From contig CAWJZV010000036.1 of NCBI GenBank assembly GCA_963847445.1, positions 1 through 31,381 of the forward strand: a stretch of DNA of 31,381 bases, written 5' to 3'. The position numbers were made by a program, and so were the translations under genes. Below are positions 28,872 to 31,381 of this stretch, in pieces. The notes beneath the pieces were generated by a model. The model was given only the letters and a program-made list of their open reading frames with translations, made no database searches and was not told where the DNA came from. The stretch comes from an uncultured delta proteobacterium. Its GTDB lineage: Bacteria > Desulfobacterota > Binatia > UBA9968. Positions within the stretch are counted from its first letter, which is position 1. Every line of letters begins with the position of its first letter.

Positions 28872-28986
28872 CGATTTTTCTCCTCAGTGGTTTCAACTCT
28901 CATACCACGATCCACGGTCACGATCACGCGCTATTTACGACCATTGCCTGTTGCCTGGGACATGCCCTGTCCCCTATATTCGCCTC

Positions 28987-29385
28987 ATGAAAGACAGCCT
29001 GCGCCCCGGCCTCACTCGCACCGCATCCTATCAAACCACCATCGACATGCGCGCGCGCCAGCTCAAAGCCGATGTCTTCTCGACCCCGTCGATGATTAGC
29101 TTGATGGAGCGGACTTGTACTGACCTTACGGAACCCTTTTTAGACGAAAACGAACAGACCGTCGGCATTCACATCGACGTGCGCCACCTGGCATCGACCC
29201 GCATCGGCCAAAGCGTCACCATGAATGCGGCGATTATCGAAGTGAAAGGCCGAAAGATTCGCTATTCAGTGGATGCGTTCAATGACGCGGGCGTGAAGAT
29301 CGGCGCGGGCACCCAATGGCGCGCGGTGGTCGACACCCAACGCTTCGCCGGTGGCATCGAGCAGGAGGTTGACCATGGGCATTAG
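28987..29385 (+). CDS. Hot-dog thioesterase, fluoroacetyl-CoA thioesterase (FlK)-like
   Basis: VFSTPSMISLME, TVGIHIDVRHLAST; Thr/Glu/His triad pattern. Confidence 0.88.
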   Translation: MKDSLRPGLTRTASYQTTIDMRARQLKADVFSTPSMISLMERTCTDLTEPFLDENEQTVGIHIDVRHLASTRIGQSVTMNAAIIEVKGRKIRYSVDAFNDAGVKIGAGTQWRAVVDTQRFAGGIEQEVDHGH

Positions 29386-30457
29386 GATTTCAACTATCGG
29401 AGTTCTCTCATTCCTACTGCTCTCAGCCATCGCGCCGGCACTGCTCCCCGCGCAAAGCGAAGAAAAACTCCTCGACGAGATCAACCAGTTAACCGAAGCC
29501 GAGCGTCAAACAAGGCTGGTCAATGGCGCCAAGAAAGAAGGCGCGGTCAACTGGTATGTGGCGATGAATCGCGTCTTCGCCAACGATCTCGTCAATGGCT
29601 TTCAAGCCGAGTACCCGTTTCTCAAGGTCAACACCTTGACCGGCAGCGGCGGTTCGCTGCTCAATCGTGTGCTCACGGAAAGCCGCGCGCGCTCCCATCA
29701 ATTCGACGTTTTTAACACCCGCAGCATGACCGTCAACACGCTCAAAAAGGCCGGCGCCATCATGCGCTACAAGTCGCCCTATCGCAGCGGCCTGCGCGAC
29801 GGCTTCGCCGATAAGGAGGGCTATTTGAATGGCATTTTTGCCACGCCGTTGGTGTTCCTGTTCAATACTAAGATGATTTCCCGCAAAGAGGCGCCGAGCA
29901 CCATCGAAGATTTGCTCCATCCTAAGTGGGCCGGCAAGATGGCCCTCGACGACGAGTCCTACGACTGGTTGGCGGCATTGATCGACCATTACGGCGAAGC
30001 CAAAGGCTTGGAGCTGGCCACCCGGCTCGGCCAACAAAAGCTGCAAGTGCGGCGCGGCCCCTCGTTGATCACGCAACTGGTCGCCGCCGGCGAATTTTCC
30101 TTGCAGATCGACAGCCATCATCAGGAAGTCATCAGTAAGAAGAAGGCCGGCGCGCCCGTCGACTATATTTTCCCCCAACCTTTCGTGCCGGCGAAATCTT
30201 TAATACCGATCTACATGTCGGCCCGTCCGCCCCATCCCTACGCGGCGGCGCTACTCGCCGACTTTCTCATGTCGCGCAAAGGCCAGGAAATCATGCATGG
30301 CCATGGCCGCTGGGTCGGGCACAAGAATATCGCGACCAAAGGGCCGGACGATGTCGGCGAGCGCAAGGTCATGATCCCATCGGCGGAAAAATGGGGCGAC
30401 CGTTACAACGAACTGATCGGCTGGTACAACAAATTGCTATTGCGCCAAGGCGCCTAA
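29375..30457 (+). CDS. ABC extracellular solute-binding protein (iron/polyamine type)
   Basis: AGGAGG RBS; signal peptide; AKKEG-x-V, DLLHPKWAGK, PHPYAAALLADFLMSRKGQ. Confidence 0.9.
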   Translation: MGIRISTIGVLSFLLLSAIAPALLPAQSEEKLLDEINQLTEAERQTRLVNGAKKEGAVNWYVAMNRVFANDLVNGFQAEYPFLKVNTLTGSGGSLLNRVLTESRARSHQFDVFNTRSMTVNTLKKAGAIMRYKSPYRSGLRDGFADKEGYLNGIFATPLVFLFNTKMISRKEAPSTIEDLLHPKWAGKMALDDESYDWLAALIDHYGEAKGLELATRLGQQKLQVRRGPSLITQLVAAGEFSLQIDSHHQEVISKKKAGAPVDYIFPQPFVPAKSLIPIYMSARPPHPYAAALLADFLMSRKGQEIMHGHGRWVGHKNIATKGPDDVGERKVMIPSAEKWGDRYNELIGWYNKLLLRQGA

Positions 30458-30531
30458 GCAGCGTAAATAAGGAACAATCCCGCGGCACGGCGGGCGAATC
30501 CGGTCGGAGCAAATTGGCTTGACGTATTATT

Positions 30532-30610
30532 GTAGGGAGGTGGAGGCGCGGAGCGCCGATACCCACCGTCGGCAGAATGATCGGTATCGCTGCTGCTCAA
30601 CCCATCCTAC
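30532..30610. repeat. Degenerate GTAG-tagged REP doublet
   Basis: GTAGG...GATACCCA...GGTATCG...ACCCATCCTAC. Confidence 0.6.
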
Positions 30611-30683
30611 GCCGGAATCGCAGCGCGCCCGAGCTTCGAGAAGCAGATTGTGGTAAATAACTAAATCAATCCAGGAGGTCTTT

Positions 30684-31244
30684 ATGAAATTATTTACTTA
30701 CCGGCCTTGACCCTACGCCCACAGGACAAGGATTGTCCTGGCGGAAAAAAATCTCTCGTACGAGACCATCGAGTGCGATTTGAAAAATAAATCCAAGGAA
30801 CTGCTCGAGCGCAATCCCTACGGCAAAGTGCCGGTGCTCGAAGACGACGGCGCGGTGATCTACGAGTCGGCGGTCATCGACGAGTATCTCGACGAAAAAT
30901 ATCCGGCTGTTCGATTGATGCCCAGCGACCTAGCCGAGCGCGCCCGCGTGCGCATTTGGGTCGACTACTGCAACACCCGGCTCCAGCGCGCCGGCGGCAT
31001 TGTCGCCCACGACTACAAAGTCGAACAGTCCAAGGCCGAGATCGTTGAATACTTGAAGTTTCTCGAAGGCCACATGCGCGGGCGCGACTATATCGCCGGC
31101 GACTACTCGCTTGCCGATATCACCTTCATCCCGTTTTTCACCCGGCTGGAACGCTATCAAGCGGCCATCGGTGATGATCTGCCGAATGTCAAAGCGTGGG
31201 TGAAACGGTTGTTGGATCGTCCAGCGGTGCAGCCGACTCTATAG
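30684..31244 (+). CDS. Glutathione S-transferase (omega/Cys-type), predicted selenoprotein (Sec at TGA 30708-30710, 186 aa)
   Basis: AGGAGG RBS and ATG 30684; MKLFTYRP-U-PYAHRTRIVLAEK is in frame with NPYGKVPVL...ESAVIDEYLDE...YSLADI. Confidence 0.9.
30722..30740 (+). promoter_or_regulatory. Putative bacterial SECIS hairpin
   Basis: CAGGACAA-GGA-UUGUCCUG, starting 11 nt after the UGA. Confidence 0.75.
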
Positions 31245-31293
31245 GCTAGGCTCAGCGAGTCATGAGAGTGCCCTAAACAATATAGCGCCGACT

Positions 31294-31374
31294 CCGTCAC
31301 GCCGGTGGAAACCGGCATCCAGGCGGAGGGGTGTCTAGTCCGAAGTCGGATTCCGGCCTACGCCGGAATGACGG
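31294..31374. repeat. CGTC-tagged REP doublet
   Basis: CCGTCACGCCGGTGGAAACCGGCATCCAG...GGATTCCGGCCTACGCCGGAATGACGG. Confidence 0.85.
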
Positions 31375-31381
31375 AAACGCG

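What the first reader, a model, noticed from the sequence alone, without database searches (positions are those of the whole stretch)
30684..31244. Selenocysteine glutathione S-transferase (U-P-Y-A active site)
Seen: a strong RBS and ATG 96 nt upstream of the listed ORF restore the missing GST N-terminus. TGA is codon 9 and a hairpin follows it. Established: omega/Cys-class GSTs use a catalytic Cys in CP(F/Y)A. Sec-containing GST-like proteins have been predicted from metagenomes but are little characterised. Inference: a natural seleno-GST acting as a deglutathionylase, reductase or peroxidase.
Basis: partly seen in the sequence, partly recalled or inferred. Interest (0 to 1): 0.85.

Follow-up and report, generated by a model that had tools for sequence, protein, structure and literature searches.

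The report
Selenocysteine glutathione transferase gene, confirmed
This gene encodes a glutathione-transferase-like enzyme whose catalytic residue is selenocysteine, written as a TGA "stop" codon; the reading is well supported, but this kind of selenoprotein was already predicted from ocean metagenomes and has never been tested at the bench.

Summary
AGGAGG (30673-30678) and ATG 30684 open a 186-codon frame that ends at TAG 31242-31244. TGA is codon 9 (30708-30710), and an 8-bp hairpin with loop GGA follows at 30722-30740. Read through, the product is a complete GST (Pfam GST_N_3 1e-22, GST_C 1e-13; AlphaFold pLDDT 95.8).

The TGA is neither an error nor a nonsense mutation. In 41 related genomes, 57 of the 58 matches of 50% identity or more carry exactly one TGA. 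All 40 loci I extracted have it at the same codon. A Cys form exists (P0107). Synonymous variation collapses over the hairpin codons. Two distant homologues have different-sequence hairpins at the same spot.

Sec aligns with the catalytic Ser13 of Tau GSTs and, by offset, with Cys32 of GSTO1.

The relatives have intact selB (35 of 40) and tRNA-Sec (29 of 40). This assembly has selA, selB and selD with single-base frameshifts and only fragments of tRNA-Sec. It is generally frameshift-ridden, so that is probably noise, but this is unproven.

GST-like selenoproteins were predicted in 2005 and 2008 and remain uncharacterised. This is a new member of a known kind.

The parts
30673..30678 (+). Shine-Dalgarno sequence AGGAGG, 5 nt before the start codon
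   Evidence: Read directly. A purine-rich RBS at the same distance is present in the homologous loci.
30684..31244 (+). Coding sequence of the 186-residue GST-like selenoprotein (ATG 30684, Sec codon 9, stop TAG 31242-31244)
   Evidence: Translation with TGA=U. Pfam GST_N_3 1e-22 (residues 3-75) and GST_C 1e-13 (113-180). AlphaFold model pLDDT 95.8, pTM 0.90. Foldseek best matches are bacterial SspA-like, Tau and Omega GSTs, TM 0.83-0.93. 38 gapless 186-codon homologues.
30708..30710 (+). In-frame TGA read as selenocysteine (U9, motif R-P-U-P-Y-A)
   Evidence: TGA at the same aligned codon in 40 of 40 loci. Cys in P0107. Aligned with Ser13 of Tau GSTs. No difference at this place in an independent contig.
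30722..30740 (+). SECIS-like hairpin: stem 30722-30729 / 30733-30740, apical loop GGA 30730-30732, starting 11 nt after the TGA
   Evidence: RNAfold. 95.5% of cells paired, with 3 pairs changed on both sides. Codon entropy 0-0.66 bits at codons 13-19, against 1.2-2.4 at other conserved Arg, Leu and Val codons. Hairpins of different sequence sit at the same distance in L073 and L094.
30780..31244 (+). The 154-aa ORF from TTG that gene callers report. It is the C-terminal five-sixths of the same gene, not a separate product.
   Evidence: the ORF listing. Most database homologues are N-truncated in the same way, at 129-177 aa. Residues 1-32 upstream are nearly invariant across 28 aligned proteins.

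Best explanation
Window 30684-31244 is a working-type gene for a 186-residue cytosolic GST-fold selenoprotein.

Shown:
- The UGA at codon 9 is conserved with its flanks.
- It is followed by a conserved hairpin of the bacterial SECIS type.
- The lineage has SelA, SelB, SelD and tRNA-Sec.

Inferred: SelB·GTP·Sec-tRNA(Sec) binds the hairpin while the ribosome is at the UGA and inserts selenocysteine.

Sec9 sits at the N-terminus of helix alpha1. This is the position of the catalytic Ser of Tau GSTs and the catalytic Cys of Omega GSTs. The glutathione-site residues are invariant (cis-Pro in K48-V49-P50; E61-S62).

Inferred mechanism: the selenolate is the redox nucleophile of a glutathione-dependent oxidoreductase.
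1. It is oxidised, either by a hydroperoxide to E-SeOH (and then by GSH to E-Se-SG), or directly by a glutathionylated or disulfide substrate to E-Se-SG.
2. A second GSH regenerates E-Se- and releases GSSG.

I rate a GPx-like hydroperoxidase and an Omega-like thiol-transferase/deglutathionylase or reductase about equally likely. Classical conjugation (the CDNB type) is unlikely.
For: Gene and recoding:
- Searches give the anatomy.
- 57 of the 58 matches of 50% identity or more, in 38 of 41 genomes of one order, carry exactly one TGA.
- TGA is at the same codon in 40 of 40 extracted loci, with an upstream start and RBS.
- 38 loci are gapless at 186 codons.
- two alleles in this genome differ at 15 synonymous and 3 nonsynonymous codons, which indicates purifying selection. 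TGA ends 633 of 1444 long ORFs, so it is a normal stop here.
- the Cys form P0107 is 74% identical to a Sec paralogue.

SECIS.

Machinery:
- selA scores 570 bits and selD 360 bits with its own in-frame TGA. selB is in pieces beside them.
- Among the 40 relatives, selB is intact in 35 and over cut-off in 36. tRNA-Sec is over cut-off in 29 of the 40, and in 21 of the 22 high-quality genomes.

Fold and site:
-.
- U9 aligns with Ser13 of soybean Tau GSTs in the printed alignment.
- Chemical conversion of that Ser13 to Sec gave high hydroperoxidase activity and abolished CDNB activity (PMC10812501, abstract and passages read).
Against: - No biochemical or proteomic evidence exists for any member, and no 75Se or mass-spectrometry data.
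- Single-sequence folding of the hairpin is not significant (z -0.7 to -1.8).
- Covariation inside the main clade is thin: the stem is mostly conserved rather than compensated, with 4 doubly changed cells of 312.
- No conserved gene neighbour points to a substrate.
- In this assembly no intact tRNA-Sec was found.
- In this assembly selA, selB and selD carry 1, 4 and 1 single-base insertions relative to G003.
- RNA evidence is only contigs of a relative in one metatranscriptome. These begin after the TGA.
Confidence: 0.8

Rival explanations
1. The gene family is a real selenoprotein family, but in this particular strain the gene is a recent fossil. An integrative element destroyed tRNA-Sec, and the Sec genes (selA, selB, selD, fdhA) are decaying. 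UGA9 would now terminate translation after 8 residues.
For: - Only a 23-nt 5' piece (C4:239464-239486, 2 mismatches, one breaking an acceptor pair) and a 24-nt 3' piece (C12:77579-77602) of tRNA-Sec are present. Both lie inside contigs.
- A tyrosine integrase gene adjoins the 3' piece. The DNA beside the 5' piece is absent from three close relatives.
- The sel genes have 1.36 frame switches per kb, against 0.33 per kb in 34 neighbouring genes.
- The FdhA-like gene with a TGA has at least 6 frame switches in 3.3 kb, while rpoB and rpoC have none in 8 kb.
Against: - The assembly is noisy everywhere: 13 of the 34 other genes compared are frame-split too.
- All 7 lesions of the sel region are single-base insertions at non-homopolymer sites. 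That looks technical rather than mutational.
- The GST itself is intact in two alleles, which differ 15:3 synonymous to nonsynonymous.
- The genome is 91.8% complete with 6.9% contamination, so an intact selC may be unassembled and the junctions may come from a minor strain.
Confidence: 0.15
2. The TGA is a nonsense mutation or a sequencing error in an ordinary Cys- or Ser-type GST gene, making it a pseudogene.
For: The assembly has many errors. Gene callers stop at the TGA and report a 154-aa ORF.
Against: - TGA is at the same codon in 40 of 40 loci from related genomes, down to 35% protein identity, and in a SAR324 MAG.
- A second allele in the same genome has it.
- An independent contig shows no difference there.
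- The assembly's errors are indels, not substitutions.
Confidence: 0.01
3. UGA9 is translated, but not as Sec. It would be read either by a reassigned code (TGA = Trp or Gly) or by near-cognate read-through that inserts Cys or Trp.
For: One database protein (P0020) shows W at this place, evidently from a gene call under a TGA=W code.
Against: - TGA ends 633 of 1444 ORFs of 400 codons or more.
- rpoB and rpoC have no internal stops.
- A SECIS-type hairpin under RNA-level constraint follows the codon.
- The lineage keeps selA, selB, selD and tRNA-Sec.
- The homologous residue is Cys or Ser, never Trp, in true open frames.
Confidence: 0.02
4. The real product is the 154-residue protein from TTG 30780. 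The upstream ATG-to-TGA stretch would be a short leader ORF.
For: That is what ORF finders and most database entries give.
Against: - The 154-aa product would lack strand beta1, helix alpha1 and strand beta2 of the thioredoxin-like domain (model).
- Residues 9-22 are the most conserved stretch of the protein.
- TTG 30780 has no counterpart as a start in many homologues. Their truncated database calls begin at different places, giving lengths of 129-177 aa.
Confidence: 0.02

Closest known systems
GST-like selenoprotein family predicted from marine metagenomes (Zhang, Fomenko & Gladyshev 2005, PMC1088965: 4 Sargasso Sea sequences, COG0625; Zhang & Gladyshev 2008, PMC2398784: 12 GOS sequences; listed in the 2026 review PMC13188914 under PF13409)
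   Same: GST fold. An in-frame TGA paired with Cys in homologues. A bacterial SECIS-type hairpin with G in a small apical loop directly downstream. No experimental characterisation.
   Different: I could not compare sequences with the published examples, because none was available to the tools. Whether this soil clade (record titles: Candidatus Binatia, Thermodesulfobacteriota or 'delta proteobacterium' MAGs) is the same subfamily is therefore untested. A SAR324 MAG homologue (44% identity) with TGA at the same place is a possible bridge. In this order the gene occurs in most genomes and often as two paralogues.
Omega-class GST (human GSTO1-1, PDB 1eem; catalytic Cys32 in C-P-F-A)
   Same: E 8.6e-26, with query 2-183 on chain 25-213, so U9 falls on residue 32 by offset. 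Foldseek TM about 0.90, 33% identity. U-P-Y-A matches C-P-F-A. The expected chemistry is a mixed (seleno)sulfide with GSH.
   Different: Sec replaces Cys. There is no N-terminal extension: the protein starts 8 residues before U, whereas the GSTO1 match starts at residue 25. It is 186 residues against 241. The residue-by-residue alignment to GSTO1 was not printed. The role of Cys32 is recalled knowledge.
Tau-class plant GSTs (soybean GmGSTU, PDB 4chs, 2vo4) and their semisynthetic seleno-derivatives
   Same: These are the best sequence matches among solved structures (E 5.5e-29, about 36% identity). U9 aligns with the catalytic Ser13 in W-P-S-P-F. Replacing Ser13 by Sec chemically yields a strong GSH peroxidase that has lost CDNB activity (PMC10812501).
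   Different: The natural Tau enzymes use Ser and conjugate electrophiles. They are plant proteins of about 219 residues. The seleno-forms are man-made.
Bacterial SspA-like GST homologues (PDB 4hoj, 4qq7, 6v91) and NCBIfam SspA NF007016
   Same: Top Foldseek matches (TM 0.83-0.89) and top NCBIfam hit (86.9 bits).
   Different: The score is far below the SspA cut-off of 314 bits. SspA is an RNA-polymerase-associated protein without a catalytic Cys or Sec (recalled).
Glutathione peroxidase (GPx)
   Same: Sec as the redox centre, with GSH as the likely reductant. The inferred cycle is the same: E-Se- / E-SeOH / E-Se-SG.
   Different: A different family. GPx has no GST C-terminal helical domain, and no GPx Pfam hit was found here. 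The resemblance is functional and inferred only.

Membership tests
Bacterial selenoprotein (general criteria of Zhang et al. 2005) | In-frame TGA conserved among homologues, with conserved sequence on both sides | tested here: met
   40 of 40 loci have TGA at the same codon, with conserved M-K-L-x-x-x-x-x-U-P-Y-A-H-R-T-R.
Bacterial selenoprotein (general criteria of Zhang et al. 2005) | Cys-containing homologues aligned with the TGA | tested here: met
   P0107 (186 aa, cluster of 149 members) has Cys at the position. It is 60% identical to this protein and 74% identical to a Sec paralogue. Only one Cys-form cluster was inspected. The paper's filter asked for at least two.
Bacterial selenoprotein (general criteria of Zhang et al. 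2005) | Stem-loop immediately downstream of the UGA with a small apical loop containing G (bacterial SECIS) | tested here: met
   An 8-bp stem with loop GGA starts 11 nt after the UGA. It is conserved and partly compensated, with synonymous sites frozen. Loops GAU and GGC on different stems occur in L073 and L094.
Bacterial selenoprotein (general criteria of Zhang et al. 2005) | Sec machinery (selA, selB, selC, selD) in the same genome | tested here: inconclusive
   selA, selB and selD are present as one cluster on C14, but with 1, 4 and 1 single-base insertions. selC is present only as two fragments. The assembly is noisy in general. In the 40 relatives, selB is over cut-off in 36 and tRNA-Sec in 29.
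GST superfamily (cytosolic, thioredoxin-like N-domain plus helical C-domain) | Both Pfam GST domains over their cut-offs, and the GST fold | tested here: met
   GST_N_3 80.7 bits (cut-off 22) and GST_C 51.5 bits (cut-off 20.7). Model pLDDT 95.8 with beta-alpha-beta-alpha-beta-beta-alpha followed by helices. Foldseek gives 924 PDB matches at E<=0.001, with GSTs at the top.
GST superfamily | Glutathione-site residues (cis-Pro after Val; Glu-Ser at the start of helix alpha3) | tested here: met
   K48, V49, P50 and S62 are invariant and E61 is at least 90% conserved in 28 sequences. Their role is recalled from GST literature. No ligand was modelled.
Omega-class GST | Catalytic Cys in C-P-F/Y-A at the N-terminus of helix alpha1 | tested here: not met
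   The position holds Sec (TGA), not Cys. The motif is otherwise the same, U-P-Y-A. This makes it functionally analogous rather than a member by this criterion.
Omega-class GST | N-terminal extension of about 20 residues preceding strand beta1 (recalled feature) | tested here: not met
   The protein begins 1 residue before strand beta1. The match to GSTO1 starts at chain residue 25.
Tau-class GST | Catalytic Ser (Ser13 in GmGSTU4-4) | tested here: not met
   U9 aligns with that Ser. Ser-type paralogues of 42-44% identity do exist in the same genome.
SspA (NCBIfam NF007016) | Score over the curated cut-off of 314 bits | tested here: not met
   86.9 bits.

The most novel reading that the evidence does not exclude
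These proteins are natural glutathione peroxidases built on a GST scaffold. They would be an independent, bacterial invention of Sec-based hydroperoxide reduction, and nature's counterpart of the semisynthetic seleno-GSTs that chemists made by putting Sec at exactly this residue. They are kept as one to three paralogues per genome throughout a whole order of soil and sediment bacteria, where they would be a main selenium-dependent antioxidant system.
Probability: 0.35. Interest if true: 0.6.

Novelty: new member of a known kind. Interest (0 to 1): 0.4.

Why it matters
Most database entries for this gene are wrongly truncated at the N-terminus. Of the 120 best homologues listed, nearly all are 129-177 aa and lack the catalytic residue. 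Annotation of this whole clade therefore hides a selenoenzyme.

The clade gives a large, clean comparative set: 40 loci, two to three paralogue groups, a Cys form, and a well-defined SECIS. That makes a long-predicted but never-assayed selenoprotein family directly testable by comparing Sec, Cys and Ser variants on one small soluble scaffold.

It also bears on why enzymes adopt Sec. Chemists have shown that Sec at this very position turns a GST into a peroxidase (PMC10812501).

It is not a new kind of system. The family, the recoding mechanism and the fold are all known.

Tried and rejected
1. ARAGORN's 'tRNA-SeC' at C2:139122-139203 and an odd 92-nt 'tRNA-Gly' on C8 have poor cloverleaves and no Rfam match even at E<=1, so I treat them as false positives. 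The best Rfam tRNA-Sec hits in G000 (45 bits against a cut-off of 47) are tRNA-Ser genes. My own motif scan for an anticodon loop plus T-arm found nothing convincing. Rfam found nothing in the sel operon locus.

2. Gene neighbourhood. Clustering ORFs from 23 loci found no neighbour shared by more than 8 loci apart from the GST and its antisense shadows. The flanking genes in the window and on C22 are solute-binding proteins and hydrolases. This gave no functional lead.

3. Sequencing runs. No run held more than 0.44 of the sampled words, and all were Logan contigs rather than raw reads.
- A pile-up of the source sample could not be made.
- Only one contig (X5, record 22) bridges the TGA with at least 31 letters on both sides.
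- RNA contigs of run X17 cover 30711-31048 in pieces, at 90-99% likeness. They start after the TGA and may come from a relative or from DNA in the library, so I draw no conclusion on expression.

4. My first attempt to classify indels by spanning ORFs was muddled by clustered compensating gaps and by long off-frame ORFs. I replaced it with the isolated-indel list and the gene-based census.

It was corrected.

7. I did not ask for supplementary files. The sequences behind the 2005, 2008 and 2026 listings of GST selenoproteins, probably in supplements or accessions, were not compared with this protein.

8. I ran no complex prediction. I make no binding claim beyond the usual GST dimer, which I did not test.

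Full report
**1. The observation**

The window is a whole contig (G000:C36) of a 7.19-Mb, 48-contig genome rated 91.8% complete and 6.9% contaminated. At its 3' end the sequence reads AGGAGG (30673-30678), five bases, then ATG (30684). Eight sense codons follow, then TGA (30708-30710), then an open frame to TAG (31242-31244). The ORF list gives only the 154-aa piece from TTG 30780.

Read with TGA=U, the 186-residue product is a complete GST. It matches GST_N_3 at 1e-22 over residues 3-75 and GST_C at 1e-13 over 113-180, with weaker glutaredoxin and CLIC N-domain matches. Eleven bases after the TGA lies an 8-bp hairpin, CAGGACAA-GGA-UUGUCCUG (30722-30740). On its own it is not statistically unusual (z -1.77 and -0.68). 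Whether it means anything had to come from comparison.

**2. The TGA is conserved, not accidental**

I searched 41 genomes (G000 and 40 relatives: 24 of the same genus, 16 of two other families of the order) in six frames with stops read through. All 41 matched.
- Of the 58 matches with 50% identity or more, 57 carry exactly one TGA. The 58th starts at query residue 15, past the site.
- 38 of the 41 genomes have at least one such gene. G001, G004 and G036 have only the 35-46% Ser-type paralogues.
- I extracted 40 loci: the 20 handed back plus 20 fetched. In all 40 the TGA is at the same aligned codon, in U-P-[Y/F/W]-[A/C]. Each has an upstream start (30 ATG among the 38 close ones, the rest one codon off an ATG) and a purine-rich RBS.
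- 38 of the loci are gapless at exactly 186 codons.
- One of the 40 loci (L042) comes from G005, which is marked unpublished. No claim depends on it alone.
- A SAR324 MAG found by the genome-collection scan (44% identity) also has TGA there.

Inside G000 the end of contig C22 overlaps the window's last 2.47 kb at 97.7% identity, in inverted orientation. Indels are confined to non-coding stretches. This second allele keeps the TGA and differs from the window's gene at 15 synonymous and 3 nonsynonymous codons. TGA is an ordinary stop in this genome, ending 633 of 1444 ORFs of 400 codons or more. rpoB and rpoC have no internal stops.

In the protein database nearly all close homologues are N-truncated calls of 129-177 aa. 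One has W at the site, evidently from a TGA=W call. One cluster (P0107, 149 members) is a full-length 186-aa protein with Cys at the site. It is 60% identical to this protein and 74% identical to a Sec paralogue. The Ser-type paralogues in the same genome (42-44% identity) have S-P-N-C there.

**3. The hairpin behaves like a SECIS**

Over the 40 loci, 95.5% of the cells of the 8-pair stem are standard pairs, against 25-51% when the 3' partner is slid by 1-3 columns. Three pairs show changes on both sides, for example A-U to G-C in L025. The stem is mostly conserved rather than covarying.

The stronger signal is at synonymous sites. Codons 13-19 (H-R-T-R-I-V-L; CAC AGG ACA AGG ATT GTC CTG) have codon entropies of 0 to 0.66 bits. 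Other equally conserved Arg, Leu and Val codons of the same genes have 1.2 to 2.4 bits. The mean is 0.61 for codons 10-20 against 1.23 for 66 conserved codons elsewhere.

Two distant homologues have stems of different sequence with a small G-containing loop at the same distance from the UGA. These are AAGUGCG-GAU-CGCACUU in L073 (35% identity) and AGAACGA-GGC-UCGUUCU in L094. [quoted passage not shown]

**4. Sec machinery**

On C14 of G000, selA (570 bits), selB and selD (360 bits, with its own in-frame TGA in S-A-G-U-A-A-K) lie in a row. selB is broken into five frame pieces, and selA and selD each have one shift near the C-terminus. Aligned with the 92-96% identical locus of G003, every lesion is a single extra base in G000 at a non-homopolymer site. 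There are seven in 6.4 kb, one of them in the next gene.

No intact tRNA-Sec was found.
- The Rfam hits are tRNA-Ser, and ARAGORN's call is a false positive.
- Blasting the relatives' tRNA-Sec found only its first 23 nt (2 mismatches) at C4:239464-239486, joined to the conserved upstream flank.
- Its last 24 nt are at C12:77579-77602, joined to the conserved downstream flank.
- A tyrosine-integrase gene adjoins the 3' piece.
- The DNA next to the 5' piece is missing from three close relatives.
This looks like an integrative element in selC.

Among the 40 relatives, selB is over its cut-off in 36, full-length in one frame in 35, and tRNA-Sec is over its cut-off in 29. In the tool's tallies, which count G000, 22 of 22 genomes at high quality have selB and 21 of 22 have tRNA-Sec. 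The lineage is plainly a Sec user.

Is G000 itself losing the trait?
- Against: the assembly is noisy in general. Of 37 long ORFs of a G003 contig with a counterpart of 80% identity or more in G000, 16 are frame-split in G000. Leaving out selA, selB and selD, 13 of 34 are split, at 0.33 switches per kb. Isolated single-base indels occur all along the contig. The third GST paralogue also has one. The GST alleles show purifying selection.
- For: the density is about four times higher in the sel genes (1.36 per kb). It is high in the FdhA-like selenoprotein gene (at least 6 switches in 3.3 kb) and zero in rpoB and rpoC. The selC fragments lie inside contigs.

I put real decay at about 0.15. Only reads can settle it.

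**5. What the protein is and how it probably works**

The AlphaFold model built from 28 aligned sequences is confident (pLDDT 95.8, pTM 0.90). It shows the GST topology, with U9 at the start of helix alpha1. The nearest solved structures are bacterial SspA-like GST homologues, plant Tau GSTs and human Omega GSTs, with TM 0.83-0.93 and 26-36% identity.

In the printed HMMER alignment, U9 falls on Ser13 of the soybean Tau enzymes (W-P-S-P-F). From the reported ranges (query 2-183 on chain 25-213) it falls on residue 32 of GSTO1, the catalytic Cys of C-P-F-A by recalled knowledge. K48-V49-P50 and S62 are invariant, and E61 is at least 90% conserved. These are the usual glutathione-site residues (recalled).

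So Sec occupies the catalytic position of a glutathione-binding scaffold. The committed mechanism is a GSH-dependent redox cycle through a selenenyl-sulfide, E-Se-SG. It is entered either from a hydroperoxide via E-SeOH (GPx-like) or from a glutathionylated or disulfide substrate (Omega-like). It is closed by a second GSH.

The peroxidase option has unusual indirect support. Converting Ser13 of GmGSTU4-4 and of a shuffled variant to Sec produced enzymes that reduce cumene hydroperoxide and H2O2 with GSH and have lost CDNB activity (PMC10812501, abstract and passages). That paper's reference list shows earlier seleno-GSTs of the same kind. Nothing in the neighbourhood narrows the substrate.

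**6. Comparison with what is known, and novelty**

GST selenoproteins are on record in three places:
- Four sequences in the Sargasso Sea set (PMC1088965, tables read).
- Twelve in the GOS set (PMC2398784, table passage).
- An entry in the 2026 review of prokaryotic selenoproteomes, which says the functions of these families remain largely uncharacterised (PMC13188914, passages).

A full-text search for Binatota plus selenocysteine found one unrelated paper. I searched no further, so I do not claim that the soil clade is unreported.

The protein is not an Omega, Tau or SspA member by their defining features (see the membership table). It works like a Cys-GST with Sec. I file it as a new member of a known kind. 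The comparative support is now strong, and the biochemical claim is still open.

**7. Verdict**

- Genuine selenoprotein gene family: about 0.97.
- Full best explanation, including the mechanism class: 0.8.
- Functional in this very strain: about 0.8.
- Interest: 0.4.

Noticed in passing
G000 C4:239464-239486 and C12:77579-77602 (outside the window); integrase at C12:77653-78855 (-): tRNA-Sec is present only as a 23-nt 5' fragment and a 24-nt 3' fragment. Each is joined to the flank it has in relative G003. A tyrosine integrase (Arm-DNA-bind_2 plus Phage_integrase) and a DUF6094/ResIII gene lie next to the 3' fragment, and strain-specific DNA lies next to the 5' fragment. It looks like an integrative island in selC with loss of the middle of the tRNA.
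   Followed up: partly
G000 C14:191468-195930 (selA-selB-selD) and the gene after it: There are seven single-base insertions relative to G003, all at non-homopolymer sites: selA 1, selB 4, selD 1, next gene 1. selD has its own in-frame TGA (S-A-G-U-A-A-K).
   Followed up: yes
G000, about 47 kb of C14, C39 and C33 compared with G003 contig C11: The assembly is frameshift-ridden. 16 of 37 long conserved ORFs are split into different frames (20 switches), while rpoB and rpoC (8 kb on C34) are intact. Gene calls from this genome will be badly fragmented.
   Followed up: yes
G000 C34:150014-153297 (-): A formate-dehydrogenase-alpha-like gene has an in-frame TGA at 152726-152728, in the part of the model where Sec is expected. 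The gene alternates between two frames at least six times.
   Followed up: partly
window 28908-31379 and G000 C22:72734-75204 (reverse strand): The ends of two contigs overlap over 2.47 kb at 97.7% identity, with indels only in non-coding DNA. This is either two strain alleles of one locus or a recent inverted duplication. It gives a second copy of the seleno-GST gene (98% protein identity).
   Followed up: partly
window 30466-30663, core 30530-30626; window 31300-31381: A 198-nt block upstream of the GST gene is missing in G003 and in an independent soil contig, where 17 other letters stand instead. Its roughly 100-nt core recurs 16 times in G000 at 81-85% identity. The contig's last 80 nt hit 35 places in G000 and have very high depth in metagenome contigs. 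These are short dispersed repeats (REP/MITE-like) that probably broke the assembly here.
   Followed up: partly
G000 C30:194070-194640 (+); also G003:C32, G014:C18, G015:C4 and others: A second seleno-GST paralogue group (54-58% identity, motif T-U-P-Y-A, I-E-V-D-L) is present in many of the same genomes. The G000 copy has a frameshift near codon 162. A third, distant type (35% identity, U-P-W-C) occurs in G033.
   Followed up: partly
G000 C30:177587-178174 (+) and C15:90988-91563 (-): Ser-type GST paralogues (42-44% identity) have S-P-N-C or S-T-N-C where the selenoprotein has U-P-Y-A. Sec-, Cys- and Ser-forms of one scaffold therefore coexist in this group of bacteria.
   Followed up: no
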